A DNA stretch of 32,000 bases from Pyrobaculum calidifontis JCM 11548 (GTDB taxonomy: Archaea > Thermoproteota > Thermoprotei > Thermoproteales > Thermoproteaceae): positions 1,890,001 to 1,922,000 of the forward strand of contig NC_009073.1 of assembly GCF_000015805.1 (NCBI RefSeq), in the 5' to 3' direction. The notes below the pieces were generated by a model. The model saw only the letters and a program-made list of their open reading frames with translations, ran no database searches and had not been told where the DNA came from. How positions within the stretch are numbered: the first letter of the stretch is position 1; every line of letters begins with the position of its first letter. The translations under genes and the position numbers were made by a program. Shown piece after piece: positions 7,512-19,880 of the stretch.

Positions 7512-7726
7512 AGCCGCTATAGTACCATTTAAGACGGCACCATGCGTAGAAGGCCGTGGCATGGGATAGCAAGGGCGTAGGCTAATTTCAGCTATCCACA
7601 CATTTCTCTCTTGCAGACGACGAGTCTCTTGCAACGGGGAAGGTTTCTCTACGCCTACACTCTCATCGTACGTAATATTGCGTACTTCTTGCACCGATGC
7701 CTGAGGAGGACGTTGATAAATATGGA

Positions 7727-7834
7727 GGCCGCCGCCGGGACTCCCAGGGGTTTCCCCTTTTGAACCCGGGTCAACGGGACCACAACCCGCCCTTAGGCGC
7801 ATGGGCGTATCCTAGCCGCTAGACTACGGCGGCC
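7727..7834 (-). tRNA. tRNA-His (anticodon GUG) with two non-canonical introns, encoded G-1 and C73
   Basis: Minus strand: G(-1) GCCGCCG TA GTCT AGCGGCTA GGAT A [CGCCCATGCGCCTAAGG] GCGGG TTGTGGT CCCGT TGAC CCGGG TTCAAA[AGGGGAAACCCCTGGGAG]T CCCGG CGGCGGC C. The G-1:C73 pair is the histidine identity element. No CCA is encoded. Confidence 0.85.
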
Positions 7835-7853
7835 GGGGGTTTCTGAGCTAAAG

Positions 7854-7866
7854 TTTAAAAATTTTT
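7854..7866 (-). promoter_or_regulatory. TATA box for tRNA-His
   Basis: Minus strand AAAAATTTTTAAA; the TTTTTAAA core lies 19 nt upstream of G-1 (7834). Confidence 0.55.
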
Positions 7867-7994
7867 AGGGGGCCCCTGTGTGCAGAAGAGCGCGTGTATT
7901 TGCTTGTGTGCGTAATCTCTGCCTCTCTGAGTCATTGGCTGCTGGCGGCGTTCTTCAGCTGACAGTGTTGTAGACAAGTCGCTTAGGTGGCGCC

Positions 7995-8297
7995 TTAGGC
8001 CGTTTGGCGCTCTTGTTGCGTTGTCGTGGGCCCTCGGTATCCGTGGATTGGGTAGCGTCGGTAGTACAGTATCTGTTTTGTCTGATTGAGGTAGGCGATT
8101 AGCTGGTCTACTGTGGCCGCTGGCACGTAGTATATGTGCCGCTCGTCTGGCGATACGCCGAACATGGCGGTCTCGTTTGGCTTTAGGATGCCTAGCTCTT
8201 TCAGCTTGTCTATTATCTTAGTGGGGTGCGCCTGGCCATCTATGTCTATTTCCACGGCGTTTTTTGTGTCTATGTCTACTAACTTTAGCCGGGTCAT
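7995..8297 (-). CDS. Hypothetical 100-aa soluble protein, translationally coupled to nuoD
   Basis: ATG 8297-8295 overlaps the nuoD TGA 8296-8294 (ATGA). The protein is MTRLKLVDIDTKNAVEIDIDGQAHPTKIIDKLKELG..., with no Cys and no motif I recognise. The longer ORF-track version (to 8669) is the same frame read through nuoD. Confidence 0.55.
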   Translation of the reverse strand: MTRLKLVDIDTKNAVEIDIDGQAHPTKIIDKLKELGILKPNETAMFGVSPDERHIYYVPAATVDQLIAYLNQTKQILYYRRYPIHGYRGPTTTQQERQTA

Positions 8298-9514
8298 CTG
8301 TCCGCCTCCGGCGGGAAGTAGCCGAATGACATGTATATGGCCGGCATGTCGGCTAGCCTCTGGTCCTTCATGGCCTCTATCATTGCCCGCAGATTGCGCC
8401 AGCTGGGGGTCACGAATCGCATTCTGTAGAGCCGCTGAGTCCCCGTGGCAAATATGTGGACGTAGGCGAGGCCCCTGGAGGCCTCCGCCATGCCCATGTG
8501 CTCCCCTGGCTCGGGGTAGAGATAGGTGTAGACTCCGAGTATTCCGGACATGCCCTCTCGCCTGTGTTCTGGGTTTTTGACGAGGAGGGCTTGGTCGACT
8601 ACGTCTCCCTCTGGGAGGCTTCTCAGGGCTTGTCTGACGAGGTCTATGGAGGCGTAGACCTCGCGCCACCTGGCCATGACTCTTGCAAGGGCGTCGCCGG
8701 CCTTCTCCACCACTGGCTCAAAATCTATTTCTCGGTAGGCGTCGTAGGGGTAGGCGGACCGCACGTCGAAGTCTATGCCGGACCCTCTGGCGAATGGCCC
8801 CACTGCCCCGACCTCGGCCGCCGCCTTGGCGTCTAAGACTCCGACGCCCTCCAGCCTGGCCTTGGTCACTGGGTTGTCTAAGAACAGCGTCTTGAAGTCG
8901 CCGAGCTTCTTCTCCACCTTGGCCAAGAGCCTCTCCACCAGCGCGATGTGCTCTGGCTTGAAGTCCCGCCTCACGCCGCCCGGCGCCGGGTACGATATAG
9001 TGGTGCGGGCCCCTGTTATCTTGGCGAATACCTCGGCGAATAGGTCCTGTAGGGCGAAGCCCCACATGAAGGCCGTGGAGTGGCCGAGGAATATGCCCAG
9101 GAGGGCTAGGTCGTAGAGGTGTGTCCTTATCCGGGAGAGCTCCGCCATGATTAAGCGGAGGTACTGCGCCCTGGGAGGCGGCTCTAGGCCTAGGGCCTTC
9201 TCGAGCGCCAATACCGCCGGGTACGTTATATTCATGCTGTCCATTATTGAGGCCTTCTCCACGAGAGGTATCAACGTCCAGTAGGGCCTGTTCTCGGCCA
9301 GCTTCTCCACGCCGCGGTGGACAAAGCCCGGGTCTGGGACTACGTCCACTATTATGTCCCCGTCCAACACTAGGAACAGCCTCATGTGGCCAGAGCCTGG
9401 GTGCTGTGGGCCTACCACTAGCACAAGGCCGCGGCGGCCCCTCAAGAGCTCCTCCTCCCTCTCTACGAAGAAGGTGTCCCCGAACTTGGCCGTGAACGGC
9501 CACTCACTCTGCAT
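8294..9514 (-). CDS. nuoD: Complex-I subunit D (49-kDa / NuoD)
   Basis: 406 aa. GPQHPGSGHMRLFLVLDGDIIVDVVPDPGFVHRGVEKLAE and the downstream RIRTHL / TGAR regions match NuoD. There is no fused NuoC domain. Confidence 0.9.
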   Translation of the reverse strand: MQSEWPFTAKFGDTFFVEREEELLRGRRGLVLVVGPQHPGSGHMRLFLVLDGDIIVDVVPDPGFVHRGVEKLAENRPYWTLIPLVEKASIMDSMNITYPAVLALEKALGLEPPPRAQYLRLIMAELSRIRTHLYDLALLGIFLGHSTAFMWGFALQDLFAEVFAKITGARTTISYPAPGGVRRDFKPEHIALVERLLAKVEKKLGDFKTLFLDNPVTKARLEGVGVLDAKAAAEVGAVGPFARGSGIDFDVRSAYPYDAYREIDFEPVVEKAGDALARVMARWREVYASIDLVRQALRSLPEGDVVDQALLVKNPEHRREGMSGILGVYTYLYPEPGEHMGMAEASRGLAYVHIFATGTQRLYRMRFVTPSWRNLRAMIEAMKDQRLADMPAIYMSFGYFPPEADR

Positions 9515-9941
9515 ATATCTTGTCCTGGAGGTTTTTCACCGCTTTTAGGAGGGCCTCGGGGGTCGGGGGGCAGCCGGAGACGTATTGGTGGACTGGCACC
9601 ACCTTGGAGGCGGGGACCATGTGGTAGCTCCCGTAGAAGACCCCGCCCTTAATGGCGCAGGCGCCCATGGCTATTACGTACTTGGGCTCGGGCATCTGCT
9701 CGTATACATATTTTACAAACTTCGCCATCTTCATGGTGATCGTGCCCTCAATCACAATTATGTTGCTCTGCCTAAGGGAGCCCATGGGAAGCATTCCAAA
9801 CCTCTCGGCGTCGTAGGCGGAGCCGAAGGCGTGGCCGAACTCCACGCCGCAACAGGCGGTGACGAGGTGGGGCGGCCATAGAGACCACTTAGTGCCCCAC
9901 TTGGCCACCTTGTCCACGGTCTTTTTCAAAAGAGTTCTCAT
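9504..9941 (-). CDS. nuoB: Complex-I subunit B (20-kDa / PSST / NuoB)
   Basis: 145 aa with the N2-cluster ligands: tandem CC (TACCGVEF), GACA and GCPP. It overlaps the nuoD start by 11 nt. Confidence 0.9.
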   Translation of the reverse strand: MRTLLKKTVDKVAKWGTKWSLWPPHLVTACCGVEFGHAFGSAYDAERFGMLPMGSLRQSNIIVIEGTITMKMAKFVKYVYEQMPEPKYVIAMGACAIKGGVFYGSYHMVPASKVVPVHQYVSGCPPTPEALLKAVKNLQDKIYAE

Positions 9942-9958
9942 GGGTTTAACGCCGCTTC

Positions 9959-9968
9959 CCTTTAAAAA
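9959..9968 (-). promoter_or_regulatory. TATA box of the nuoB-nuoD-orf100 unit
   Basis: Minus strand CTTTTTAAAG lies 18-19 nt upstream of ATG 9941, within a 90-nt very AT-rich spacer. Confidence 0.55.
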
Positions 9969-10031
9969 GATTTTTAAAAATTTTATATAATTAAAATTTC
10001 TTCTCCAGGTACTTTAAATTTCGACCATTGT

Positions 10032-10382
10032 CTAACTCCACCTCTTTATGTCTCCTAGCACCCTTAGATAGGCGGCTACGAACGCTGCCACAACTGCCAA
10101 GGAGAGGGCCAAGGCGGCGAAGAGGCCGGGGGATGCGCCGCCGCTCAGAAGTGCGTAGACGATCAAGAGCCCCGCCACCGCCTCCGCCGCTGTGACGAGG
10201 TATATGTAGCCGACGTACTGGGCCACCAGCCTCCTCTTAACCTCGCCGTATGGGGGATTGCCTGCCTCAAACCTCCGCTCTTTGACCTCGCTTGGCTTCT
10301 TGGGCGCGAGTCTGTAGCCCACGTAGACGAGGGCGGCCAAGGCGGCGAAGAGGAGGGCTAGGAAGAGGAGAAGGGCGGTCAT
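10032..10382 (-). CDS. nuoA: Complex-I subunit A (NuoA/ND3-like)
   Basis: 116 aa, three hydrophobic helices. The loop motif RFEAGNPPYGE corresponds to the Y/F-E-x-G...P-x-G signature of NuoA. It overlaps the nuoH stop by 4 nt. Confidence 0.7.
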   Translation of the reverse strand: MTALLLFLALLFAALAALVYVGYRLAPKKPSEVKERRFEAGNPPYGEVKRRLVAQYVGYIYLVTAAEAVAGLLIVYALLSGGASPGLFAALALSLAVVAAFVAAYLRVLGDIKRWS

Positions 10383-11353
10383 GCCACGCCGGCGGCCTTA
10401 AGCGCCGCGGAGAGGGCCACGGCGGCCACCGCCAGCGCCAGCAATTTGCTCCAGCCTAGCCTAAGGGCTTGGTCGATCCTGTAGCGGGGGTAGATGGCTC
10501 TTAGGAGTAGCAGCGGGACTGTGAGTAGGGCGGCCTTGACGACCACCGCCAGCGCGCCTAGCAACAAGTCGCCGAAGGGGGACCACCCGCCGAGGAACAG
10601 CACTGCGCCCAGGAGGACGCCTGCGTACATCTTGACGTAGTTGGCCCCAAAGGAGAGGATGAAGAGGGTAGAGCCGTACTCAGTATACGGCCCCAGCACC
10701 ACCTCAGGCTCTGCCTCGGGGATTTCGAAGGGGAACCTTGTGGTGGACATGGCCAACGATATGTAGAAGGCGAGGAAGGCGAGGGGGTTGAGGAGGACGC
10801 CCCAGAGGCTCTGCCTCTCCACGACGGCGTAGGGGTCGGCCGTGCCGTACAAGATGAACATGGCCAACACGGAGAGAAGGAGGGGGACCTCGTAGGCAGC
10901 GGTGAGGAGGATCTCTCTCACGGCGCCTATGTAAGTGAACTTGTCCGCCTCCGCCCACGCCATCCCCACTAAAAACACCGGAATGAGCAACCACGTCACC
11001 ACGGCCAGCGCCAGGCCGTAAGAGTGGTGGAATATGACCAGGCCAGGGGCCACCGCGATGAAGACCACTGGCACAGCCTCGGCGACGAAGAGGAGGAGGG
11101 GCGTCAGGGCGAAGAGGTGCCTATTGGTGTGTCTGGGGAGGACGAGCTCGGAGAACACTAGTTTTATGAGGTCTGCTATGGGCTGGAGAAAGCCCCCCAG
11201 CGGCTTAGAGACGTAGAGGGGGCCGTAGCGCCACTGTACCCTCGCCACCAGCTTCCGCTCGGCCCATATGGCCACTACGAGGAAGCCGAGGATTCCCGCT
11301 ATCCCTGGGAATATGAGCGCCGCGAGGATGTCGCTTGGGATGCCCGCGATCAT
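10379..11353 (-). CDS. nuoH: Complex-I subunit H (NuoH/ND1)
   Basis: 324 aa polytopic protein. WAERKLVARVQWRYGP and ...FPFEIPEAEPEVV... match conserved NuoH segments. Confidence 0.85.
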   Translation of the reverse strand: MIAGIPSDILAALIFPGIAGILGFLVVAIWAERKLVARVQWRYGPLYVSKPLGGFLQPIADLIKLVFSELVLPRHTNRHLFALTPLLLFVAEAVPVVFIAVAPGLVIFHHSYGLALAVVTWLLIPVFLVGMAWAEADKFTYIGAVREILLTAAYEVPLLLSVLAMFILYGTADPYAVVERQSLWGVLLNPLAFLAFYISLAMSTTRFPFEIPEAEPEVVLGPYTEYGSTLFILSFGANYVKMYAGVLLGAVLFLGGWSPFGDLLLGALAVVVKAALLTVPLLLLRAIYPRYRIDQALRLGWSKLLALAVAAVALSAALKAAGVA

Positions 11354-11748
11354 ACCAGCGACTTGTCCCCGACATCGGCGGCCACGGAGCCGGGCGTCAT
11401 CTCCTTGGGCTTCTTATACGTGTCGAGGCTGTCCCACGTGATTTCTATGTGGGCCGTGTGCTGAAGGGAGCCGGTGGGACAAGCGTCTACGCAGTAGCCG
11501 CAGAGTATGCACCTCCCCCAGTCTATCCCGGGGTACCTCTTGCCGTCTTCCTCTAGGTGGAATTTTATGGCCTTGGCGGGGCAGACCGCCTCGCACAGCT
11601 GGCAAGAGATGCACTTAGACTTGTCGTTTACTATAAATCCCCGGGGGGCCGGGCCGTAGTCTCTCCTCTCCTCGGGCCATCTAACGGTCCACGGCTTTTC
11701 AAATAGGTTTTTTAGAGCTACTGCGAAGAGCTTTATGTGAGTGATCAT
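11350..11748 (-). CDS. nuoI: Complex-I subunit I (NuoI/TYKY, 2x[4Fe-4S])
   Basis: 132 aa with two ferredoxin-type motifs, CISCQLCEAVCP and CILCGYCVDACP. ATG 11748-11746 overlaps the TGA (11747-11745) of the oxidoreductase beta gene. Confidence 0.85.
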   Translation of the reverse strand: MITHIKLFAVALKNLFEKPWTVRWPEERRDYGPAPRGFIVNDKSKCISCQLCEAVCPAKAIKFHLEEDGKRYPGIDWGRCILCGYCVDACPTGSLQHTAHIEITWDSLDTYKKPKEMTPGSVAADVGDKSLV

Positions 11749-12815
11749 TTAGCGCCCCGCGGCGTCATGCAGGGGAGGCTTGGGTCCACGGGGCCTATCA
11801 CCTCTCTGCCCACCATTCTATTTATCTCGGCCACGTCTCTGTCAATGATGGCCTGTATCATGTCTATCTCCTCTGGCTTCAAGTGCTTGAACCTGCCCTG
11901 TAGCTGTAAGAAGCACTTCACCGGCTTCCTCTTGGGGACGGGTATCGTGACTCTAAACTCGCCGTTTTCAATCTCGTAGTTGACCCAGTACCCCGTCTCT
12001 GTGGCCAGCTCCAAGACCCGTATCGCGTACTTGGGCTCAAACCTCCAGCCTGGGGTACACGACTGGAGTATGTGTATGAAGGAGGGGCCGTCCACCTCCG
12101 CCGCCTTCTTTATCTTCATGACCATGTCGTGGACGTAGGCCGGGTTGGCCGTGGCCACGTAGGGAATTCCGTGGGCCGCCGCGATGAGGGCCATGGGCTT
12201 CTTATGAGTGACGTTCCCAGGCACCTTCCTCCCGGCGGGGGCCGTCGTTGTAGATGCGCCTAGGGGCGTGGTGCCGCTACGCTGTATGCCCGTGTTCATG
12301 TAGCCCTCGTTGTCGTACATGATGTAGATCACCCGGTGGCCCCTCTCCAGCATGCCGCTCAGTGCCTGGAACCCGATGTCCGCCGTCCCGCCGTCGCCTG
12401 CGAAGACCACGACGTTTATCTTCCTGTTGGGGTCAATTACGCCGCGCCTCTTCAAGGCCTTGATGGCGGCCTCTATGCCAGAGGCCACAGAGCCCCCGTT
12501 ACCAAAGGCCACGTGCATCCAGGGGACGGCCCAGTTGGTGCGCGGATAGACGACGGTGGACACCTCGGCGCATCCGGTGGGATTCACCACGACTGTGTCT
12601 GGCCCCAAGACCTTTAACATGTGTCTAGCGATGACGCCTATGGTGCACGACGCGCATAGGCCGTGGCCTGGGAGAAACAGCTCCTCCTGCGGCAGTTCAA
12701 AGTTGGCGTACTCGTAGAGGCCGGCGTACTCCTCTGCCACTTTTACGCCGGGTATGCCAAGCGAGTGGCGCCTTATGTATATCTTCTCCCGGAATCTACC
12801 CTTGACCTCACTCAT
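11745..12815 (-). CDS. 2-oxoacid:ferredoxin oxidoreductase, beta (TPP-binding) subunit
   Basis: 356 aa. Conserved Cys region GHGLCASCTIG and TPP motif VVFAGDGGTADIGFQALSG...YDNEGYMNTG, typical of PorB/VorB. Confidence 0.9.
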   Translation of the reverse strand: MSEVKGRFREKIYIRRHSLGIPGVKVAEEYAGLYEYANFELPQEELFLPGHGLCASCTIGVIARHMLKVLGPDTVVVNPTGCAEVSTVVYPRTNWAVPWMHVAFGNGGSVASGIEAAIKALKRRGVIDPNRKINVVVFAGDGGTADIGFQALSGMLERGHRVIYIMYDNEGYMNTGIQRSGTTPLGASTTTAPAGRKVPGNVTHKKPMALIAAAHGIPYVATANPAYVHDMVMKIKKAAEVDGPSFIHILQSCTPGWRFEPKYAIRVLELATETGYWVNYEIENGEFRVTIPVPKRKPVKCFLQLQGRFKHLKPEEIDMIQAIIDRDVAEINRMVGREVIGPVDPSLPCMTPRGAK

Positions 12816-14016
12816 AGCCTCCCCTGAGGCCCAGAGTGTATGTCTGCCCAGGTGCCCAATGGCCTTTGTGGATCTTCCAACCGGCTTCGTATATCATGTC
12901 GCTGTCTATTGCCCTCATGCCAATGGTGGCTAAGATGTTGTACACGGGCTTGTGCAACGTGGCGGCCACCTCCACCGCCATGGGGCCCTGGAGCGGGCCG
13001 CCGTGGTTAATTGTCCTGTCTATTACAGCGACTTTGTCGACGTGGCCTAGGAGCTTTCTCAAGAGGTCGTAGGGCCAGGGCCTTATGACCCTCAGCCTCA
13101 GGGCCCCCGCCTTGACGCCCTCTGAGCGCAACCGGTCGACGGCCTTTTTCACAAGCCCAAAGATGGAGCCGTAGGTGACTATCGCCACTTCTGCGTCCTC
13201 TAGCCGGTAGGGGACCGCGAGCCCGTAGCTTCTGCCAAACCACTTGCAGTACTCGGAGTCGACTTCCTCGATTACTTTTATAGACTCTCTAAGAGCCTCT
13301 ACCGCCTGCCACCTAACCTCCCAGTACCACTCAGGCGTGCCCACTGCGCCCAGCTGCGCCGGGTTGTCCACGTCCAGCTTAACCCAGCTCCTGGTAATAG
13401 GCGCAAACCTTATCACCTCCTCCTCGTCCTCTGGCACGTCGAGCGGCTGGAGGACGTGGCTTGTCCAAAAGCCGTCGTAGGCCACGGCCACGGGCAAGTG
13501 GACGCGGGAGTCCTCTGCGACTCTGTACGCCTGTATTATTGTGTCAAAAGCCTCCTGCGCGTTTTGCACAATGTAGATAATCCAGCCGAGCTCCCTCATA
13601 GACATCACATCGCTGTAGTCACCCCAGACGTTTATTGGGGCTGAGGCCGTCCTCGCGGCTATGCCCATCACAATGGGTAGGCGCATGCCCACAGCTATGG
13701 GCAAGTTTTCGTACATGTGGAACAGCCCTTGCGAAGACGTCTCGGTGAAGGTTCTGGCCCCCATGGCTGAGGCGCCTATCACCGCGGACATGGCCGAGTG
13801 CTCCGACTCCACCGGTATATACTCGGCGTCTAGCTCGCCGTTGTTTACATACTCCGCCAGCTTCTCCACTGCCGGGGTCTGGGGCGTTATGGGGTAGGCC
13901 GCAATTACTTCAACTTTGGCCATCTTAACCGCCAGGGCCACTGCGTGGTTCCCCGTGAGCGCTATCCGCCTCTGCGCAACCCTTCTCTCCCTTGGGATAA
14001 CTGCCTGCGCCGTCAT
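12808..14016 (-). CDS. 2-oxoacid:ferredoxin oxidoreductase, alpha subunit
   Basis: 402 aa. LTGNHAVALAVKMAKVEVIAAYPITPQT...ESEHSAMSAVIGASAMGARTFTETSSQG is the PorA/VorA N-terminal signature. It overlaps the beta gene by 8 nt and the gamma/delta gene by 4 nt. Confidence 0.9.
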   Translation of the reverse strand: MTAQAVIPRERRVAQRRIALTGNHAVALAVKMAKVEVIAAYPITPQTPAVEKLAEYVNNGELDAEYIPVESEHSAMSAVIGASAMGARTFTETSSQGLFHMYENLPIAVGMRLPIVMGIAARTASAPINVWGDYSDVMSMRELGWIIYIVQNAQEAFDTIIQAYRVAEDSRVHLPVAVAYDGFWTSHVLQPLDVPEDEEEVIRFAPITRSWVKLDVDNPAQLGAVGTPEWYWEVRWQAVEALRESIKVIEEVDSEYCKWFGRSYGLAVPYRLEDAEVAIVTYGSIFGLVKKAVDRLRSEGVKAGALRLRVIRPWPYDLLRKLLGHVDKVAVIDRTINHGGPLQGPMAVEVAATLHKPVYNILATIGMRAIDSDMIYEAGWKIHKGHWAPGQTYTLGLRGGYE

Positions 14017-14951
14017 ATCTCCCTAACCATCTGTATTGCCCCAGTTGGGCACACCTCAGCGCACACGCCGCAACCCTTGCAGAAGGCGTAGTCAAAGTCT
14101 ATGAACTTCATGCGGAACTTCCTCCCCCTGGGCCCCTCCACCTCTCTCCAGGCCTCTATTATAGCGTCGTCGGGGCAGTACAGCCAGCACTTGCGGCACA
14201 TTATACACTTGGAGTGGTCTATCACCGGCTTGTCAATGCGCCAGCCCCCCGTCGTGTAGAAGAAGCTTGTGCCCGGGAAGACAGCCCCAGCCTTGTTCAC
14301 CTCTTGCCAGCCCACGATGTCGTACGGCCCAGTCAAGAAGGCAGAGGTTGTGGATATGATGCCCTTCGGCTTAGCCGACTTGTCCACTCTCTCTGGGGGT
14401 ATGACCACAGCCGTCTCGTAGGCCTCCTTAGTTGCCGCGAAGTTCTCCTCAACCGCCTTCCCCAGCTGGGTTTCAAACGCTTGTCTTATGGACTCCAGGG
14501 AGGGGAAGCCCATCACCTTGGCAAAGGCGCCAGCCAGCGGCCCGTTGGGAATGTCCAGCTTCAAGTGACGTCTTGCTATGTCTATGGCATCTAACACAAC
14601 TAGGTAGACGTCGTCTCTGCCCACGAGCTTCCTCGCCTCCTCTGGCCTCTTACCTGTGTTGAGAATTATGTAGCCGCCAGGCTTGACTGCGTCTATGGCA
14701 AACCTCATTGGGTCAATTAACTTGTCGTCGAAGATCACGGCCACGTCGGGGGTCTTCACCGGCTCTTGGTCCTCTATGGGGTCTTTGCTAACTGTGAGAA
14801 AGGCCTTGACGGGGGCGCCCCTCCTCTCGGCGCCGAACTCGGGGTTGGCAATGGCGTAGAGCCCGTCTATCACCGCGGCGTTTGCTATAATGTACGTGGC
14901 TGTGACAATGCCCTGCCCGCCGCGGCCTAGCCAGACTGTCTCCACCCGCAT
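14013..14951 (-). CDS. 2-oxoacid:ferredoxin oxidoreductase, fused gamma-delta subunit
   Basis: From ATG 14951: MRVETVWLGRGGQGIVTA... (gamma domain), followed in the same ORF by CIMCRKCWLYCP and CKGCGVCAEVCP (delta, 2x[4Fe-4S]). The start was moved from the ORF-track 14993 on TATA spacing. Confidence 0.85.
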   Translation of the reverse strand: MRVETVWLGRGGQGIVTATYIIANAAVIDGLYAIANPEFGAERRGAPVKAFLTVSKDPIEDQEPVKTPDVAVIFDDKLIDPMRFAIDAVKPGGYIILNTGKRPEEARKLVGRDDVYLVVLDAIDIARRHLKLDIPNGPLAGAFAKVMGFPSLESIRQAFETQLGKAVEENFAATKEAYETAVVIPPERVDKSAKPKGIISTTSAFLTGPYDIVGWQEVNKAGAVFPGTSFFYTTGGWRIDKPVIDHSKCIMCRKCWLYCPDDAIIEAWREVEGPRGRKFRMKFIDFDYAFCKGCGVCAEVCPTGAIQMVREI

Positions 14952-14970
14952 GGGTCTACCCCGTAGCATC

Positions 14971-14982
14971 CATATAAATTTG
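14971..14982 (-). promoter_or_regulatory. TATA box of the oxidoreductase-nuoIHA unit
   Basis: Minus strand CAAATTTATATG; the TTTATATG core lies 19 nt upstream of ATG 14951. Confidence 0.6.
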
Positions 14983-14991
14983 CCTATGTGC

Positions 14992-15030
14992 AAAAGGGAA
15001 TTGAGTTAAGATTTCTTCTACAAATCTCAA
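14992..15030 (-). terminator. Hairpin plus T-tract after nuoN
   Basis: Minus strand: UUGAGAUUU-GUAGAAG-AAAUCUUAA (9 bp) directly after the nuoN TAA, followed by CTCAATTCCCTTTTG. The single G-U pair exists only in the minus-strand RNA (A-C on the plus strand). Confidence 0.5.
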
Positions 15031-15032
15031 AT

Positions 15033-16154
15033 TTAAGATAATGATAGAGTATGTGAAAGCCAGAGGGGCGCAACGGCGCCGGCGGCGGTTAACACCACGG
15101 CAATGGCCGCCGCGACGGGGCCCACGCCGCTTGGGAGATCTCTAGCCACTCTAAAGTAGTAGGGCACTGAGAGGGCTATGTTGGCCAACAGGTATACGCC
15201 GACGTGAGGGCCCAGGGTGTATGCGGCGAGTATGAGGAGGTAGAGCTTTGGCCAAAAGCCGAGGGCCGGCGGCACCCCTATCTGGTTCATGGCCAAGAGG
15301 TAGGCGGCCCATCTGCCCGACCCGGCCTCCAAGTGGTTGAACAAGGCCATTTTGCCCAAGGCGTCGGCCATTATCAACAGGAGGGCCACCTGGGGGGACA
15401 GGGGGTACGCGAATATGGCGAAGCCTGCGTGGGCCACTGTGGAGTAGGCGAGCACCCTCCTCAAGTCTCCGCTGGTCAAGGCGCCGAGGTTTCCCACGAA
15501 CATAGAAAGAGCGCCGAGCCCATACGCGGCCAAGGCCCCCACCTCCGGCCTCACGTAGAGCAACGCGAAGCCGGCCGCCAGTTTGGGCAAACTGGCCAAG
15601 GCGGCTAGCCCCGCCGGCCTAGAGCGGCCGTACACGTCGGGAACCCAGAGGTGGAGAGGCGCGGCCCCCAGCTCGGCGGCCACGGCCATGAATATGAAGA
15701 AGTTGCCGAACGCGGGGTAGTCGGGCCTAGTGGCCAGCCCCACCGCCATAAAGCTGACGGCTATGGAGGAGATTACGAGGTATCTAAACAGCCCCTCTAG
15801 GGACCCCCTGTCGCCCATCGTGGGCAATAAGACCGCTGGGGCCAGCGTGGCCATGGCAAAGCCTAGGAGCTGCAGATGTGCAACCCCCGTGGCTATGAGC
15901 AAAACGCCGGTGTACGACACCGCGGCGGCCATGCCGGCCTCTTTTGCCAACTTGCCCCGAGCCACCATGGCCACGCCGAGGAGATACGGCAGTGTGTAAA
16001 CACCAGCCAAAATAGGCGGCCACCCCTCTGCGGCCTTATAAACAGCTAAGGCGGAGATATATACCACGTCGAGCGGCCATGCGCCACGTAGAAATAGCCT
16101 AAGGACCACATACGCAGTGAAGGCAAGTGGCAAGAGTAGCTTGTCTACCTCCAT
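15033..16154 (-). CDS. nuoN: Complex-I antiporter-like subunit, NuoN/ND2-like (short form)
   Basis: 373 aa polytopic protein. ELGAAPLHLWVPDVYGRS matches the NuoN P-x-H-x-W-x-P-D-x-Y motif. Confidence 0.7.
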   Translation of the reverse strand: MEVDKLLLPLAFTAYVVLRLFLRGAWPLDVVYISALAVYKAAEGWPPILAGVYTLPYLLGVAMVARGKLAKEAGMAAAVSYTGVLLIATGVAHLQLLGFAMATLAPAVLLPTMGDRGSLEGLFRYLVISSIAVSFMAVGLATRPDYPAFGNFFIFMAVAAELGAAPLHLWVPDVYGRSRPAGLAALASLPKLAAGFALLYVRPEVGALAAYGLGALSMFVGNLGALTSGDLRRVLAYSTVAHAGFAIFAYPLSPQVALLLIMADALGKMALFNHLEAGSGRWAAYLLAMNQIGVPPALGFWPKLYLLILAAYTLGPHVGVYLLANIALSVPYYFRVARDLPSGVGPVAAAIAVVLTAAGAVAPLWLSHTLSLS

Positions 16155-17785
16155 AACACTACCAAGGCCAACACAAGCGCCACGCCTATGCCCGTACCCG
16201 CTACGTAGAGCCAGTAGTCGAAGTTCCTCTTGGAGATCTGCCGCGACGCCGCGGCAAGCGCCGTGGGCAACGCGCCGTGTAGAGCTAGGTCAACAACGCG
16301 GTCTGCCGTGGCGGTTAGCTTGACCAAGGCGTTCCACGCGTCGATGGACTTAAAGATTAGGAGGTCGACTGCTCTGTCCCCTATCGCCACCGCCCTCTTT
16401 ACAGCGTCAAACGCCCTCGGGGCCGCTAGGTCGTATAGCAGGGGCAGGCCGAGCCTGGCGTATAACACGCGCGGAGGCGGGACATATGCCAGCGCCAGGC
16501 CCATCAGCGCCAGGGCCCAGAGGGGGTTCGGCAACGCTGGCACTAAAAACGCCGAGGAGGCCACGCCTAGGTAGGGCAACGCCATTGGGCCAAGGCCCGT
16601 GCCCTCTGTGCCAGTTCTAAGGAGGAGCTTCCCCACGTAGCCCGCCGTGAGCGCCGAGAAGGCGAGTACCCAGACGTCGGCGTGTTCTTTGGCCAAGGCG
16701 CCGAGGGGGGTCAGCCCCGCCAGCGTCAGAAGCGCCAGCGCCATGGCGGCCTTGGCGGCTAGGGGATACGCCCCGGGCGTTCTGCTGTGAGTCTCATGGA
16801 TCGCGTGGCCCACCGCCATGAACAATGTGGCCTTGGCCACGCCGTGGGCGTATATGAGCCACAGCGCTTCATGGGGGTTCTTGAGAGAAAACGCCGTTAT
16901 TAAGCCCAGATAGGAGGCGGTGGAGGCGGCGAGCAGGACCTTGGGCTCCCTCTGGGCCAGGGCCACCAGCCCGCCGTAGAGGGCTGTGGTTATGCCGACG
17001 GCGAAGGCCACGTCGGCGGCCCACGTGGGCATCAACGAGCCGAACTTGAGCAGGAGGATGGGCCCAGCCTTGACCATGGTGGAGGAGTGGAGTAACGCGC
17101 TCACCGGCGTCGGCGCCGACATTGCCGTCATAAGCCAGTCTGTGAAGGGGAGCTGGGCGGCTTTGGCAAACGCGGCCACGAGCAAAAGGGCGGCCGCCAA
17201 GTCGCCTAGGGCGACCCACTGCGAGATGTAGCCGCCATACTGCGCCGCGGCCATGCCCAGAGAGGCGAGGAGGGAGGCGGAGCCCACCTCCACGGTCAAA
17301 ATGGCCCTAAGGGCAGAGGCGCTCGGAGTCCACAGCCATGTGAGACCCCAGAACCTCTCCCCAAGCCCCACCCTTCCCGCGTCCTCTTCGTCTCTGTACG
17401 TGAGGATTAGGCCCCAGCTGGCTATGTCGAGGCCTCCCCACCCTACCGCGAGGAGGATCCAGTGGTCTGCCGAGACGAAGACGAGCATAGAGCCGTAGAA
17501 CAAGTTCATCCAGGCCCAGAACCACCCAAGCCGCTGGTTGCCCCTCATATAGAAGATTGAGTAGAGGGATATGGCCGCGTATATGCCCGAGACAAAGACC
17601 AACAGGCCCAGTATGTGTCCATCGAGTCTAAATAGGTGAGTGGTAGGGCTTGAGCCCAGAAGCAGAGCCGCCGCCACAGCCGCCGAGGTGGCCACTGCGA
17701 ATATGCCGCGTCTCGTCAACAGGTCCAGCGCCGCGGCTATGAAAGGTAGCGCCAGGAGTAGCTCTAAAGCGACCATAACAGCCAC
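16145..17785 (-). CDS. nuoL: Complex-I antiporter-like subunit NuoL/ND5-like
   Basis: 546 aa. AAQLPFTDWLMTAMSAPTPVSALLHSSTMVKAG matches the NuoL core. The C-terminal long amphipathic segment plus final TM helix is consistent with the lateral helix. The start may be ATG 17776. Confidence 0.75.
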   Translation of the reverse strand: MAVMVALELLLALPFIAAALDLLTRRGIFAVATSAAVAAALLLGSSPTTHLFRLDGHILGLLVFVSGIYAAISLYSIFYMRGNQRLGWFWAWMNLFYGSMLVFVSADHWILLAVGWGGLDIASWGLILTYRDEEDAGRVGLGERFWGLTWLWTPSASALRAILTVEVGSASLLASLGMAAAQYGGYISQWVALGDLAAALLLVAAFAKAAQLPFTDWLMTAMSAPTPVSALLHSSTMVKAGPILLLKFGSLMPTWAADVAFAVGITTALYGGLVALAQREPKVLLAASTASYLGLITAFSLKNPHEALWLIYAHGVAKATLFMAVGHAIHETHSRTPGAYPLAAKAAMALALLTLAGLTPLGALAKEHADVWVLAFSALTAGYVGKLLLRTGTEGTGLGPMALPYLGVASSAFLVPALPNPLWALALMGLALAYVPPPRVLYARLGLPLLYDLAAPRAFDAVKRAVAIGDRAVDLLIFKSIDAWNALVKLTATADRVVDLALHGALPTALAAASRQISKRNFDYWLYVAGTGIGVALVLALVVLWR

Positions 17786-19074
17786 GGCACTGCTGCGAGG
17801 AGGGCGTAGGGCGCCAGCGCCGTCGCGAGAGTAGGGATGTACATATCTCTAGGCGCGTCCAGTGGGCCGCTCCCCGCCTTGTATACCCTGTTCAGTATAT
17901 AGAAGTTGTAGAGGGCTGTGGAGAACAGAGCGAGTATCAATAGCGCGGCGGCTGAGAGGCTGTGGGGAAGCCCCATGGCCAACAGCGCCTTCCCCACTAA
18001 GACTATTCCAAAGACCCCTGAGAGGGCCACGAAGGTCAAGACCGCCAGGGCGAGGGCCGAGGTGTCCCACACGAGCTTGTCCAACTCGCGGGTGTGCAAC
18101 TTAACAATGTAAATGCCTGAGAGCATAAATCCAGCGGCTTTGGCGAAGGCGTGCCCCACGAACAAGACGGCGGTGGCCAAGTAGTCTAAGGGGGGCAGGT
18201 GTGGTGCAACCTGGTACTTGGGCATGGCGGCCGCCGCCACGAGCAGGCCCATGTTGGCGATGGTGGAGTCAGCGAGAGCCCTCTTGATGTCCATCTCTCT
18301 GAAGACGAGGAGTGAGCCATAGACGGCGGTGGCTAGGCCGTAGAGGTAGAGGGCGTCGAGGGGCCAGTGGGCGCCCTCCTTCAGCCTCCAGATCCAGTAA
18401 GCCATTAGCCCCACGTGGACTGGGCTTAGGAGGGCGGAAAGCGGTGTGGGGGCCTCGGCGTGGGCGTAGGGGAGCCAGAAGTGGACTCCCAAAGTCCCCA
18501 TCTTCACCAACAGGCCCACAAGCACGAGGAGGGAGGCAACCCCCGCGGCTTGAAACACATCTGCGTCAAATTTCCCAGCCAGCGCCACTCCCACTAGGAA
18601 GAGGATGGACCCGACTTGGGCCCAGAGGAAGTAGAGGATGCCCACCACCCTCCTGTTGCCGTAGCCGAAGTACCATATGAGGAGGAAGCTCGTTATTATG
18701 CTGAGCTCTAGGGCGAGGAAGACGAAGATGAGGTTTTCAAAGGCCACGATCCAGACAAAGGACAGCACGTAGAAGGCGTGGACCATGTAGTACCACCTCT
18801 CGGCGCCTAGGTGCTCTAAATAGCGCTGGGCGTAGAGGGCCGTGATCAGGCCGAGCACTATGGAAACTGTTGCGAATGGCCACTTGTCGGCAGTCAGCGA
18901 AAACGCGACCTCGCCCACATATGGCAAAGTGGCCAACACGGTTCGCTCCACGACGCCGAAGTACAACGCCATTGTGGCCACGGAGGCAACAGCAGCCCAT
19001 CTGCCGAAGCGGACAGCCGCTAGTGCAAGTATAGAAGATAGGAGCGTTGCCAGCAGGAAATATAGGCTATACAT
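17764..19074 (-). CDS. nuoM: Complex-I antiporter-like subunit NuoM/ND4-like
   Basis: 436 aa. VHFWLPYAHAEAPTPLSALLSPV matches the NuoM W-L-P-x-A-H-x-E-A-P motif. Confidence 0.7.
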   Translation of the reverse strand: MYSLYFLLATLLSSILALAAVRFGRWAAVASVATMALYFGVVERTVLATLPYVGEVAFSLTADKWPFATVSIVLGLITALYAQRYLEHLGAERWYYMVHAFYVLSFVWIVAFENLIFVFLALELSIITSFLLIWYFGYGNRRVVGILYFLWAQVGSILFLVGVALAGKFDADVFQAAGVASLLVLVGLLVKMGTLGVHFWLPYAHAEAPTPLSALLSPVHVGLMAYWIWRLKEGAHWPLDALYLYGLATAVYGSLLVFREMDIKRALADSTIANMGLLVAAAAMPKYQVAPHLPPLDYLATAVLFVGHAFAKAAGFMLSGIYIVKLHTRELDKLVWDTSALALAVLTFVALSGVFGIVLVGKALLAMGLPHSLSAAALLILALFSTALYNFYILNRVYKAGSGPLDAPRDMYIPTLATALAPYALLAAVPWLLWSL

Positions 19075-19303
19075 GGCCCTCCTTCGCCAATTTGAACAGT
19101 GTAGCGACGAATATCAGCGTCTCGGCGACGCCCACCGCGGCCGCAACGGCGAGCAGGTTTATGTCTCTAGCAACCGCCGCCGCATACAGCGCCGCTAGCG
19201 TCAAAATCTCGGCACCAATTACGACTCTCACAAGAGAGACCGCTGTGGCAATGGCAACAAGGCCCGCCACCAACAAGACGATCAGCGTGACCAACTCGGT
19301 CAT
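19067..19303 (-). CDS. nuoK: Complex-I subunit K (NuoK/ND4L-like), short
   Basis: 78 aa and hydrophobic. GAEILTLAAL... and ...AVGVAETLIFVATLF resemble the two conserved Glu-containing helices of NuoK. It overlaps nuoJ by 4 nt and nuoM by 8 nt. Confidence 0.6.
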   Translation of the reverse strand: MTELVTLIVLLVAGLVAIATAVSLVRVVIGAEILTLAALYAAAVARDINLLAVAAAVGVAETLIFVATLFKLAKEGHV

Positions 19304-19704
19304 GTACTCAACTCTACAGCAATCTTCAGCACATAGACGATGAAGGCGGCCGCCAGAGGTATCAACATGTAGTCCAACGCCTGTTGCACCGCTTGCTGGG
19401 GGCCAGGCCTTAGGAGGAGGGGGGCTGCGAGGGCCACGGCAACTGCGGCGAGGGCAGACTTCCTAAATTCTACGGGCTTTGCCACGTCGCCCATCGAGGC
19501 CGCGGCGATGAGCACGAGGGTCAGCGCGGCCACTATATACACAAGCGTGATGAGTATAAACGCAGCAGCGCCCAAGTGGGGCGTGGAGCCCAGGGCCACG
19601 GCTACCCCTAGGCCTGTCAATAGGAGAGAGGCATATATGTTGTCCCTTGTGTACAGTATTAAGAAGGCGAGGGCCGCCACGCCGACTAAAGTCAAGAGGT
19701 CCAT
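19300..19704 (-). CDS. nuoJ: Complex-I subunit J (NuoJ/ND6-like)
   Basis: From ATG 19704: MDLLTLVGVAALAFLILYTRDNIYASLLL...LVYIVAALTLVLIAAASMG, a NuoJ-like pattern. The start was moved from 19737 on TATA spacing. Confidence 0.6.
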   Translation of the reverse strand: MDLLTLVGVAALAFLILYTRDNIYASLLLTGLGVAVALGSTPHLGAAAFILITLVYIVAALTLVLIAAASMGDVAKPVEFRKSALAAVAVALAAPLLLRPGPQQAVQQALDYMLIPLAAAFIVYVLKIAVELST

Positions 19705-19722: not shown

Positions 19723-19734
19723 CTTTTTAAATTT
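19723..19734 (-). promoter_or_regulatory. TATA box of the nuoJKMLN unit
   Basis: Minus strand AAATTTAAAAAG lies 18-19 nt upstream of ATG 19704. Confidence 0.55.
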
Positions 19735-19852
19735 CACTAAAGTAACTTGAACATACAGCCATTGAAGCCTTGAGAAATTTAGAATTAAGTATAATTAAGA
19801 AAACTGCGCCGCACATGCATTTCGAAATATTTAAACTTAGTGTTAGGAAATA

Positions 19853-19860
19853 CTTAAATA
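19853..19860 (+). promoter_or_regulatory. TATA box of the aldehyde:ferredoxin oxidoreductase gene
   Basis: CTTAAATA lies 20 nt upstream of ATG 19881. Confidence 0.5.
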
Positions 19861-19880
19861 GGAAGTTCATGCTTAATCCT

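What the first reader, a model, noticed from the sequence alone, without database searches (positions are those of the whole stretch)
10032..14982. A 2-oxoacid:ferredoxin oxidoreductase operon is spliced into the complex-I gene string and start/stop-coupled to nuoI-nuoH-nuoA
Seen in sequence: six consecutive minus-strand genes (OFOR gamma/delta, alpha, beta, nuoI, nuoH, nuoA) each overlap the next by 4-8 nt. The overlaps are ATGA at 14013-16, 8 nt at 12808-15, ATGA at 11745-48, 4 nt at 11350-53 and 4 nt at 10379-82. The only TATA box for this chain is upstream of the gamma/delta gene (14971-78, 19 nt before ATG 14951). The ~50 nt upstream of nuoI are GC-rich coding sequence with no TATA-like element. 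The upstream nuoJKMLN unit ends in a hairpin plus T-tract, and the downstream nuoBD unit has its own TATA. No NADH-oxidising module (nuoE/F/G) is in the window. Established knowledge: archaeal complex-I-like enzymes lack NuoEFG, and their physiological donor is ferredoxin or F420 in the lineages where it is known. OFORs reduce ferredoxin through their delta (2x[4Fe-4S]) domain. Inference: this OFOR may be the dedicated electron-input device of this complex. It could act through free ferredoxin, or by direct docking of the fused gamma/delta subunit onto the NuoI/NuoB/NuoD arm, giving a 2-oxoacid-to-quinone respiratory route. I do not know of such a fused operon or supercomplex being described.
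Basis: partly seen in the sequence, partly recalled or inferred. Interest (0 to 1): 0.85.

Follow-up and report, generated by a model that had tools for sequence, protein, structure and literature searches.

The report
Oxoacid oxidoreductase genes inside complex-I cluster
In this heat-loving archaeon the genes for a pyruvate-type 2-oxoacid:ferredoxin oxidoreductase really do sit inside, and overlap, the genes of a complex-I-like proton pump, but the same arrangement and the same idea were published for a relative in 2011 and have not been tested since.

Summary
Six minus-strand genes (OFOR gamma/delta, alpha, beta, nuoI, nuoH, nuoA) overlap by 4-8 nt at the stated coordinates. One leaderless-type promoter box lies 21 nt before the first ATG. 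The window is Pyrobaculum calidifontis.

The cluster order nuoJKMLN | oorCD-A-B-nuoI-H-A | nuoB-D-small ORF is kept in every Pyrobaculum/Thermoproteus locus recovered. It is absent from 70 other archaeal nuoH loci.

The novelty claim fails. Siebers et al. 2011 (PMC3189178) described this fqo/oor cluster in Thermoproteus tenax. They also asked whether the OOR replaces the substrate-oxidising module and funnels electrons into the quinone pool. I found no later test of that idea.

New here:
- The conserved unit is oorCD-oorA-oorB-nuoI, not the six-gene chain. oorB and nuoI overlap in 34 of 34 non-redundant loci.
- The nuoI-nuoH distance runs from -4 nt to 5.4 kb, and several lineages have a separate promoter box before nuoH.
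- The linked NuoI is the shortest among archaeal homologues.
- The cluster carries no nuoC.
- The OFOR has a fused gamma/delta subunit and extended beta termini, unlike its nearest free-standing relatives.

A functional link is well supported. Whether electrons pass through free ferredoxin or through a docked OFOR remains open.

The parts
19724..19734 (-). Promoter-like A/T box (AAATTTAAAAA) ending 20 nt before the nuoJ-like start
   Evidence: It has the same geometry as the boxes before oorCD and nuoB. Function is inferred.
19300..19704 (-). nuoJ-like membrane protein (134 aa), assigned by position only
   Evidence: Called as a gene in identical contigs. No Pfam or NCBIfam hit. Conserved at this position in relatives.
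19067..19303 (-). nuoK-like protein (78 aa)
   Evidence: Weak Pfam Oxidored_q2 match, E = 0.048. Overlaps its neighbours.
17764..19074 (-). Antiporter-like subunit, NuoM-type (436 aa)
   Evidence: Pfam Proton_antipo_M. NCBIfam NuoM and hydrogenase-4 subunit models match far below their cut-offs.
16145..17776 (-). Antiporter-like subunit, NuoL-type (543 aa; the ORF listing gives a GTG start at 17785)
15033..16154 (-). Antiporter-like subunit, NuoN-type (373 aa); end of the first unit
   Evidence: An 81-nt spacer follows it.
14972..14981 (-). Promoter-like A/T box (AAATTTATAT) ending 21 nt before the oorCD ATG
   Evidence: An equivalent box is present in all 8 loci compared, the window included.
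14013..14951 (-). OFOR gamma/delta fusion (312 aa): POR gamma domain plus a 2x[4Fe-4S] delta domain
   Evidence: Pfam POR plus Fer4; NCBIfam PorC_KorC and PorD_KorD above their cut-offs. Two CxxCxxCxxxCP motifs.
12808..14016 (-). OFOR alpha subunit (402 aa)
   Evidence: POR_N plus PFOR_II. PorA_Arch scores 395 bits against a cut-off of 550.
11745..12815 (-). OFOR beta subunit (356 aa), TPP-binding, with clade-specific N- and C-terminal extensions
   Evidence: TPP_enzyme_C. PorB scores 395 bits against a cut-off of 405. The GDG...N motif and four Cys are conserved and the extensions are visible.
11350..11748 (-). nuoI (132 aa), 2x[4Fe-4S], start overlaps the oorB stop (ATGA)
   Evidence: Canonical NuoI N-terminal motif and best matches to NuoI models and to complex-I, MBS and MBH chains. 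Shortest of about 65 archaeal homologues. The overlap with oorB holds in 34 of 34 loci.
10379..11353 (-). nuoH (324 aa)
   Evidence: Pfam NADHdh, E = 7.5e-75. NCBIfam NuoH scores 330.7 bits against a cut-off of 305.
10032..10382 (-). nuoA (116 aa)
   Evidence: Weak Oxidored_q4 and NuoA matches. Coupled to nuoH in 23 of 23 loci.
9961..9996 (-). nuoA-nuoB spacer elements: conserved TTTTAATTATATAAAAT (9980-9996) and a TATA-like box (9961-9968) ending 20 nt before the nuoB ATG
   Evidence: Function is inferred.
9504..9941 (-). nuoB (145 aa) with the four cysteines of cluster N2 (CC...C...C)
8294..9514 (-). nuoD (406 aa), Fpo/Fqo-like type
   Evidence: NCBIfam NuoD scores 374.9 bits against a cut-off of 360. 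PDB matches. Motif comparison.
7995..8297 (-). Small conserved ORF (100 aa), ATGA-coupled to nuoD, predicted beta-grasp fold, function unknown
19770..21728 (+). Aldehyde:ferredoxin oxidoreductase, divergent neighbour of the cluster and another ferredoxin-reducing enzyme
   Evidence: AFOR_N plus AFOR_C. Kept next to the cluster in L001, L003, L004, L087 and L101.

Best explanation
The cluster encodes two machines that work as one respiratory route in Pyrobaculum calidifontis. The first is a catalytically intact, pyruvate/2-ketoisovalerate-type 2-oxoacid:ferredoxin oxidoreductase with subunits gamma-delta, alpha and beta. The second is an Fpo/Fqo-type complex-I-like enzyme with NuoA, B, D, H, I, J, K and three antiporter-like subunits. 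It has no NADH- or F420-oxidising module.

The OFOR oxidises a 2-oxoacid and loads electrons onto low-potential [4Fe-4S] centres. These electrons enter the membrane complex at NuoI, pass through NuoB cluster N2 and reduce menaquinone, with proton pumping.

Most likely mode (a narrow preference): the OFOR stays a separate soluble enzyme and hands electrons to NuoI through a small ferredoxin. The gene arrangement then serves to make OFOR and NuoI together. They share one promoter and an overlapping stop/start.

Shown: gene identities, cofactor motifs, overlaps, promoter-box geometry, conservation. Inferred: direction of electron flow, quinone as acceptor, ferredoxin as carrier, co-transcription.
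For: - Domain assignments and cofactor motifs are intact in OFOR, NuoI and NuoB.
- No NuoE, NuoF, NuoG or FpoF is encoded in 32 kb.
- The same cluster order occurs in all 10 Pyrobaculum/Thermoproteus genome loci and in no other of the 70 nuoH loci. It recurs in 24 metagenome loci, in P. ferrireducens and in a Thermoproteus MAG.
- oorB and nuoI overlap in 34 of 34 non-redundant loci, while flanking genes and spacers vary.
- The OFOR beta subunit is 62-66% identical to ordinary free-standing crenarchaeal PorB proteins. Two of these were checked and lie in porG-D-A-B operons with no nuo genes. This fits an otherwise normal, soluble OFOR.
- A second ferredoxin-reducing enzyme (AOR) sits next to the cluster, which fits a shared ferredoxin pool.
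- Established knowledge: complex-I-like enzymes without an input module accept ferredoxin at the NuoI homologue. Examples are Pyrococcus MBH and MBS (the best PDB matches), cyanobacterial NDH-1 and Methanothrix Fpo.
- The host is a heterotroph able to grow in air. Orthologues occur in P. arsenaticum, P. aerophilum and P. ferrireducens, which are described as obligate heterotrophs or peptide users. This fits the oxidative direction.
Against: - If free ferredoxin were sufficient, nothing explains why nuoI, rather than nuoH or nuoB, stays glued to oorB even where nuoI is far from nuoH.
- No ferredoxin gene lies in the cluster.
- From established knowledge, known ferredoxin-dependent complexes do not carry the ferredoxin-reducing enzyme in their operon, whereas complexes with docked input enzymes do.
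- The linked NuoI lacks the terminal extensions present in other archaeal homologues. The OFOR has clade-specific additions.
- Transcription was not measured, and Pyrobaculum operons are known to have internal promoters (PMC3388794).
- Quinone reduction is assumed, not shown.
Confidence: 0.42

Rival explanations
1. The OFOR is the bound electron-input module of the complex. It sits, perhaps loosely, on NuoI in the place taken by NuoEFG in complex I or FpoF in Fpo. Electrons then tunnel from the delta-domain clusters straight into NuoI, giving a 2-oxoacid:quinone oxidoreductase. This is the second alternative of Siebers et al. 2011 and of the first reader.
For: - oorB and nuoI overlap in 34 of 34 loci, whereas the nuoI-nuoH distance ranges from -4 nt to 5.4 kb.
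- In L115 no nuoH lies within 6.5 kb downstream of nuoI.
- In a more divergent lineage seen in two samples (L088, L091) oorB-ATGA-nuoI is followed by a convergent unrelated gene.
- Several lineages have a promoter-like box before nuoH but never before nuoI.
- The linked NuoI is 131-137 aa against mostly 140-249 aa elsewhere and lacks both terminal extensions.
- Compared with its nearest free-standing relatives, the OFOR has a gamma-delta fusion, a beta N-terminal extension of about 30 residues and a C-terminal DPxxxC tail.
- The cluster contains no ferredoxin gene and no nuoC.
- Established precedents for an input enzyme encoded with, and bound to, a complex-I-like module: formate hydrogenlyase (FdhF on HycB/HycF) and CO dehydrogenase/CooF with Ech-type hydrogenase.
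Against: - To my knowledge no OFOR has been shown to bind a membrane complex.
- The catalytic subunits are very close to ordinary soluble PORs.
- Overlapping junctions are mechanically harder to break than spacers, so part of the invariance may be passive.
- Gamma-delta fusion also occurs in soluble oxalate oxidoreductase (NCBIfam match).
- No interface could be modelled with the tools available.
Confidence: 0.36
2. The pair runs in reverse. The complex uses the proton gradient to push electrons from menaquinol up to the OFOR, which then acts as pyruvate synthase (acetyl-CoA + CO2 to pyruvate) for autotrophic growth.
For: - Established knowledge: OFORs are reversible, and Thermoproteus/Pyrobaculum neutrophilum fix CO2 by the dicarboxylate/4-hydroxybutyrate cycle, which needs pyruvate synthase and low-potential electrons (summarised in PMC12794621).
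- T. tenax, where the cluster was first seen, is a facultative autotroph.
Against: - The window is from P. calidifontis, a heterotroph.
- Close OorB orthologues exist in P. arsenaticum and P. aerophilum, reported as obligate heterotrophs, and in peptide-using P. ferrireducens.
- The cluster is therefore not tied to autotrophy.
Confidence: 0.07
3. There is no special functional link. An OFOR operon landed next to nuoI in the ancestor of Thermoproteaceae when the nuo cluster was rearranged, and it has been kept because overlapping genes are hard to separate.
For: - All overlapping junctions in the cluster are stable, not only oorB-nuoI.
- The arrangement is confined to one family.
- The cluster is already split into three or four promoter-headed units.
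Against: - The nuoI-nuoH junction shows that an overlap in this cluster can be lost or gained repeatedly.
- Insertions of 1.5-5.4 kb hit the spacers on both sides of the oorCD-A-B-nuoI block but the block itself is never broken up.
- The physiology makes sense, since an OFOR product must be re-oxidised by exactly this kind of complex.
Confidence: 0.1
4. The 132-aa NuoI-like protein is not a subunit of the membrane complex. It is a dedicated ferredoxin of the OFOR that merely descends from NuoI.
For: - It always travels with the OFOR and sometimes lies without nuoH nearby.
- It scores below the curated NuoI cut-offs.
Against: - It keeps the NuoI-specific N-terminal motif before the clusters (LKNLFEKPWTVRWPEE...RG) and aligns over its whole core to NuoI chains of solved complexes.
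- No other nuoI is present in the cluster, so the complex would lack an essential subunit.
Confidence: 0.05

Closest known systems
fqo/oor cluster of Thermoproteus tenax (TTX_0203-0215; Siebers et al. 2011, PLoS One 6:e24222, PMC3189178)
   Same: It is a complex-I-like (Fqo-like) gene set without an F420 or NADH module, with three OFOR genes (A, B and fused CD) in its middle. It lies in the same family, and Thermoproteus loci L005, L068 and L089 show the same order as the window. The authors posed the same two hypotheses.
   Different: The species differs (P. calidifontis). The paper did not report the invariant oorB-nuoI coupling, the variable nuoI-nuoH spacing, the trimmed NuoI, the missing nuoC or the small ORF after nuoD. 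I did not hold the T. tenax sequence itself.
Fpo/Fqo F420H2:methanophenazine or quinone oxidoreductases, and the FpoF-less Fpo of Methanothrix that is thought to take electrons from ferredoxin
   Same: The NuoD motifs are shared: GPQHPxS-GHMRL, and no Tyr at the column of Thermus Nqo4 Tyr87. The subunit set is similar and no NuoEFG is present.
   Different: Those clusters keep the order A-B-C-D-H-I-J-K-L-M-N, include the C subunit and have longer NuoI/FpoI proteins, some with an extra 2x[4Fe-4S] domain. None carries OFOR genes.
Pyrococcus furiosus MBH and MBS (PDB 6cfw, 6u8y)
   Same: They are ferredoxin-oxidising complex-I relatives without an input module. POR supplies the reduced ferredoxin. 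6u8y chains are the best PDB matches of the window's NuoD and NuoI.
   Different: MBH and MBS reduce protons or polysulfide and carry an Mrp-type module. Their POR is encoded elsewhere and is soluble (established knowledge). The PDB lead over Thermus complex I is marginal (212 against 204 bits).
Formate hydrogenlyase (PDB 7z0s) and CO dehydrogenase/CooF/Ech-type hydrogenase
   Same: They are precedents for a soluble-type substrate dehydrogenase that is encoded with, and attached through ferredoxin-like subunits to, a complex-I-like membrane module.
   Different: The input enzymes and the acceptor (protons) differ. An extra ferredoxin-like adaptor (HycB, CooF) is present there, whereas here the OFOR delta domain would have to play that part.
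Free-standing crenarchaeal pyruvate:ferredoxin oxidoreductases (Ignisphaera and Desulfurococcales porG-D-A-B)
   Same: The beta subunit is 62-66% identical and has the same catalytic motifs.
   Different: Gamma and delta are separate genes, the beta subunit lacks the N- and C-terminal extensions, and no nuo genes are nearby.

Membership tests
2-oxoacid:ferredoxin oxidoreductase (POR/VOR type) | Alpha subunit with POR_N and PFOR domain II | tested here: met
   Pfam E = 1.2e-68 and 2.1e-23.
2-oxoacid:ferredoxin oxidoreductase (POR/VOR type) | Beta subunit with the TPP/Mg site (GDG...N) and four Cys for the proximal [4Fe-4S] | tested here: met
   TPP_enzyme_C. GDGGTADIG...YDNEGYMNTG and C54, C57, C82, C253 are invariant in the alignment.
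2-oxoacid:ferredoxin oxidoreductase (POR/VOR type) | Gamma domain plus a delta domain with two CxxCxxCxxxCP motifs | tested here: met
   PorC_KorC 156.9 bits (cut-off 81) and PorD_KorD 96.5 bits (cut-off 60). Both motifs were read in the translation.
2-oxoacid:ferredoxin oxidoreductase (POR/VOR type) | Pyruvate as the substrate (equivalog-level PorA/PorB assignment) | tested here: inconclusive
   PorB scores 395 against a cut-off of 405, and PorA_Arch 395 against 550. VOR models come next. Substrate needs an assay.
Complex-I-like (Nuo/Fpo/Fqo) 11-subunit core | NuoH, NuoB with N2 cysteines, NuoD, and NuoI with 2x[4Fe-4S] | tested here: met
Complex-I-like (Nuo/Fpo/Fqo) 11-subunit core | Three antiporter-like subunits plus NuoA, NuoJ and NuoK | tested here: inconclusive
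   L, M and N are clear as a family but far below their equivalog cut-offs. NuoA is weak. NuoK scores E = 0.048. NuoJ is assigned by position only.
Complex-I-like (Nuo/Fpo/Fqo) 11-subunit core | NuoC (30-kDa) subunit encoded with the core | tested here: not met
   An HMM built from 36 archaeal NuoC sequences finds none in the window or in L001, L003 and L004. It does find NuoC in L006, L008, L010, L045 and L075. The subunit may be encoded elsewhere in the genome.
Complex-I-like (Nuo/Fpo/Fqo) 11-subunit core | Quinone (or phenazine) reduction coupled to ion pumping | not testable with these tools
   The NuoD site motifs match the archaeal Fpo/Fqo type. There is no activity data.
NADH:quinone oxidoreductase proper (14 subunits) | NuoE, NuoF and NuoG input module | tested here: not met
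   None among the ORFs of the 32-kb window.
Thermoproteaceae fqo/oor cluster (Siebers et al. 2011) | OFOR genes A, B and fused CD embedded between the membrane-arm genes and nuoI-H-A-B-D | tested here: met
   The window and 34 related loci, including Thermoproteus MAGs. No direct alignment to the TTX genes was made.
Substrate dehydrogenase docked on a complex-I-like module (FHL/CODH-Ech kind) | Physical association of the input enzyme with the membrane complex | not testable with these tools
   Only single-chain prediction was available. Gene-order evidence is indirect.

The most novel reading that the evidence does not exclude
In Thermoproteaceae a pyruvate-type OFOR has replaced the NADH or F420 module of a complex-I-like enzyme. 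It binds at a trimmed NuoI of a core whose own cluster lacks nuoC. The result would be a proton-pumping 2-oxoacid:menaquinone oxidoreductase that bypasses soluble ferredoxin, with oorCD-A-B-nuoI as the co-translated assembly unit.
Probability: 0.36. Interest if true: 0.8.

Novelty: already known. Interest (0 to 1): 0.5.

Why it matters
How archaeal complex-I relatives without NuoEFG receive their electrons is known for only a few lineages. A 2-oxoacid dehydrogenase wired directly into a proton pump would be a new kind of input module. It would also be a short, high-yield route from central carbon metabolism to the quinone pool, spanning about 0.4 V.

The arrangement and the idea have been in print since 2011, so the value here is not discovery. 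The value is a sharper test. The comparison points to OFOR-NuoI as the pair to examine. P. calidifontis grows in air to useful cell densities, which makes it a practical organism for complexome profiling, membrane assays and cryo-EM.

Tried and rejected
- NuoC. I looked for it in the cluster with a purpose-built HMM and found none. I then asked whether the small ORF after nuoD is a reduced NuoC. Profile-profile comparison gave 0.3% probability, and the predicted fold is beta-grasp rather than NuoC-like.
- Quinone site. I tested whether NuoD lacks the quinone-site residues, which would hint at another acceptor, as in MBS. The deviation from Thermus Nqo4 is shared by all archaeal Fpo/Fqo-type loci, including Methanosarcinales. 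It says nothing specific about this cluster.
- Terminator hairpin after nuoN. It is no better than shuffled sequence.
- RNA genes. The Rfam and tRNA scans of the window found nothing.
The single-sequence model was used instead.
- L088 type. A metagenome scan for longer contigs (OFOR-nuoI without nuoH) returned only the ordinary Pyrobaculum/Thermoproteus type and distant OFORs.
- The 498-aa 'NuoD' of P. ferrireducens looked like a NuoD-small-ORF fusion. It is a frameshift that destroys the conserved NuoD C-terminus, so it is not evidence of interaction.
- Literature. Cozen et al. 2009 (P. aerophilum transcription map) and Ramos-Vera et al. 2009 were not held. Searches found no follow-up test of the 2011 hypothesis.
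- The bacterial promoter/terminator scanner was not used, because archaeal promoters are outside its scope.

Full report
OBSERVATION.
The junctions are as described: ATGA at 14013-16, an 8-nt overlap at 12808-15, and ATGA at 11745-48, 11350-53 and 10379-82 (read, recomputed).

Pfam and NCBIfam identify the six products:
- a POR gamma domain fused to a 2x[4Fe-4S] delta domain;
- an alpha subunit (POR_N plus PFOR_II);
- a TPP-binding beta subunit;
- a NuoI-like 2x[4Fe-4S] protein;
- NuoH, above its curated cut-off;
- a weak NuoA.

Upstream lie nuoJ/K-like ORFs and three antiporter-like subunits. Downstream lie nuoB, nuoD and a coupled 100-aa ORF. No NuoE, NuoF or NuoG is encoded anywhere in the 32 kb.

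The cofactor motifs are intact: two CxxCxxCxxxCP motifs in the delta domain, GDG...N and four Cys in beta, eight Cys in NuoI and the CC...C...C of cluster N2 in NuoB.

PROMOTER GEOMETRY.
On the minus strand there are three A/T boxes whose 3' ends lie 20-21 nt before a start codon, the spacing expected for leaderless archaeal transcripts. They stand before the nuoJ-like gene (19724-34), oorCD (14972-81) and nuoB (9961-68). Inside the six-gene chain there are seven other A/T 7-mers, none at that distance. The nearest to nuoI is ATAAATA at 11819-25, 71 nt upstream and inside codons E-I-N-R of the beta subunit. By sequence, then, the chain has one promoter in this genome.

This is not proof. Pyrobaculum operons are reported to have internal promoters (PMC3388794). 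The hairpin after nuoN is not distinguishable from chance (z = -0.83).

SOURCE.
The exact beta subunit and NuoH are P. calidifontis proteins (WP_226951963.1, ABO09463.1). Identical contigs occur in a mock community and in hot-spring assemblies.

CONSERVATION.
A search of one genome per species with NuoH gave 80 loci. All ten Pyrobaculum/Thermoproteus loci (NuoH 57-83% identical) show nuoJ-K-M-L-N | oorCD-A-B-nuoI-H-A | nuoB-D(-small ORF). The other 70 come from Korarchaeia, Bathyarchaeia, Archaeoglobaceae, Desulfurococcales, Methanosarcinales, Vulcanisaeta and others. They show the usual A-B-C-D-H-I-...-M-L-N order or a lone nuoH, and none has OFOR genes.

P. ferrireducens, a Thermoproteus MAG and 24 metagenome loci add further examples. 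Flanking genes differ between lineages: AOR on one side in some, a convergent second nuoB plus nuoC on the other side in others. The cluster is therefore retained against a changing background.

WHAT IS ACTUALLY INVARIANT.
Junctions were measured across 34 non-redundant loci.
- oorCD-oorA: -4 nt in 25 of 25.
- oorA-oorB: -8 or -4 nt in 28 of 29.
- oorB-nuoI: overlapping in 34 of 34 (-4 in 31).
- nuoI-nuoH: at most 10 nt in only 9 of 27, and 82 nt to 5.4 kb in 18.

In the WP30-like and some Thermoproteus lineages the nuoI-nuoH spacer carries a promoter-like box about 20 nt before nuoH. No locus has one before nuoI.

The larger spacers hold foreign genes. L094 has an Eco57I/MmeI-like restriction-modification enzyme between nuoI and nuoH. 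L092 has an AAA_15/AAA_21 ATPase between nuoN and oorCD. L005 has opposite-strand small ORFs between nuoI and nuoH.

In L115 no nuoH lies within 6.5 kb of nuoI. In a more divergent lineage found in two samples (L088, L091; beta 74% identical) oorB-ATGA-nuoI is followed by a convergent flavoprotein-like gene. The conserved unit is therefore OFOR plus nuoI, not the six-gene chain.

DERIVED FEATURES OF THE LINKED PROTEINS.
The nearest relatives of the beta subunit outside this clade are ordinary crenarchaeal PorB proteins (at most 66% identity). Two were examined and lie in free-standing porG-porD-porA-porB operons with separate gamma and delta genes. Relative to them, the linked OFOR has a gamma-delta fusion, an N-terminal beta extension of about 30 residues and a C-terminal DPxxxC tail.

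The linked NuoI (131-137 aa) lacks the N- and C-terminal extensions seen in other archaeal NuoI/FpoI proteins, which are mostly 140-249 aa.

The cluster has no nuoC. A NuoC HMM finds the gene in other loci, but not in the window or in its close relatives.

The small ORF after nuoD is conserved, has no family match and is not NuoC-like. It is predicted as a beta-grasp fold from a single sequence, with pLDDT 85 and only weak structural matches.

WHAT IS KNOWN.
Siebers et al. 2011 (PMC3189178) described the T. tenax fqo/oor region TTX_0203-0215. They called the embedded oor genes an 'unprecedented observation'. Seven literature searches found no experimental follow-up. Two possibly relevant papers were not held.

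MECHANISM.
That this OFOR feeds this complex is well supported by conservation and by physiological logic. Low-potential electrons from 2-oxoacid oxidation need exactly such an outlet. NuoI is the entry point of input-module-less relatives (established knowledge; the PDB matches are to MBS, MBH and complex I). I put the functional link at about 0.8.

The mode is open.
- For free ferredoxin: the OFOR is otherwise a normal POR-type enzyme, an AOR gene is adjacent, and several relatives are known ferredoxin users.
- For docking: nuoI specifically is bound to oorB, the NuoI is trimmed, the OFOR has clade-specific additions, no ferredoxin gene is present, and (from established knowledge) complex-I relatives carry an enzyme in their operon when it is a bound module (FHL, CODH-Ech, FpoF, NuoEFG).

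I give 0.42 to the carrier model and 0.36 to docking. Reverse operation as a proton-gradient-driven pyruvate synthase gets 0.07, because the cluster is present in heterotrophs. A frozen accident gets 0.10. NuoI as a mere OFOR ferredoxin gets 0.05.

VERDICT.
It is correctly read as a functional pairing, but it is not new. The comparison adds a sharper target, the OFOR-NuoI unit, for a question that has stood since 2011.

Noticed in passing
window 7995-8297 (-): A 100-aa ORF overlaps the nuoD stop (ATGA). It is conserved after nuoD in 8 Pyrobaculum loci (46-67% identity) and has no Pfam or NCBIfam match. It has no cysteines; H24, Y57-V58-P59 and I84-H85 are invariant. It is predicted as a beta-grasp (ubiquitin-like) fold and may be an unrecognised subunit of the complex.
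   Followed up: partly
window 8294-19704; L006 13765-14379 (-); L008 13387-13995 (-): The cluster has no nuoC. In the WP30-like lineage a nuoC and a second nuoB (61% identical) lie convergent just downstream of the small ORF. In the window and its closest relatives they are not nearby.
   Followed up: partly
window 9980-9996 (-): A 17-nt element, TTTTAATTATATAAAAT, lies about 40 nt before the nuoB start. It is almost identical in 9 loci whose neighbouring spacer sequence has diverged, and it sits upstream of the TATA-like box. It may be a regulator site.
   Followed up: no
window 19724-19734, 14972-14981, 9961-9968 (-): Three A/T boxes share the same spacing (3' end 20-21 nt before the ATG). 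They head the three units nuoJKMLN, oorCDAB-nuoIHA and nuoBD-small ORF.
   Followed up: partly
L094 4499-7774; L092 5591-7134; L005 8940-9914: In relatives the promoter-bearing spacers of the cluster have taken up foreign genes. L094 has an Eco57I/MmeI-like restriction-modification enzyme between nuoI and nuoH. L092 has a split AAA_15/AAA_21 ATPase between nuoN and oorCD. L005 has three opposite-strand small ORFs between nuoI and nuoH.
   Followed up: partly
L088 719-2365; L091 1-654: A more divergent lineage (beta 74% and NuoI 61-63% identical, GC 53%) was seen in two samples. It has oorB-ATGA-nuoI followed at once by a convergent gene whose C-terminus looks like a succinate dehydrogenase or aspartate oxidase flavoprotein, and a 134-nt gap between oorA and oorB. 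Its organism is unknown.
   Followed up: partly
L087 13308-14804: In the P. ferrireducens genome record nuoD is called as 498 aa. A frameshift near the 3' end replaces the conserved NuoD C-terminus and runs into the frame of the small ORF. It is either a sequencing error or a damaged gene.
   Followed up: yes
window 11350-11748 (-) and NuoI of about 65 loci: Archaeal NuoI/FpoI length varies from 131 to 249 aa. Methanosarcinales, ANME-like and one Archaeoglobaceae locus carry an extra C-terminal 2x[4Fe-4S] domain. The OFOR-linked form is the minimal one.
   Followed up: partly
window 19770-21728 (+): An aldehyde:ferredoxin oxidoreductase gene lies divergent from the nuoJ-like gene. It is kept in that position in five related loci (87-98% identical) but not in the WP30-like lineage.
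   Followed up: no
window 7512-7994: A stretch of about 480 nt between the small ORF and a glycosyltransferase gene has no called gene in identical contigs, no Rfam match and no tRNA.
   Followed up: no
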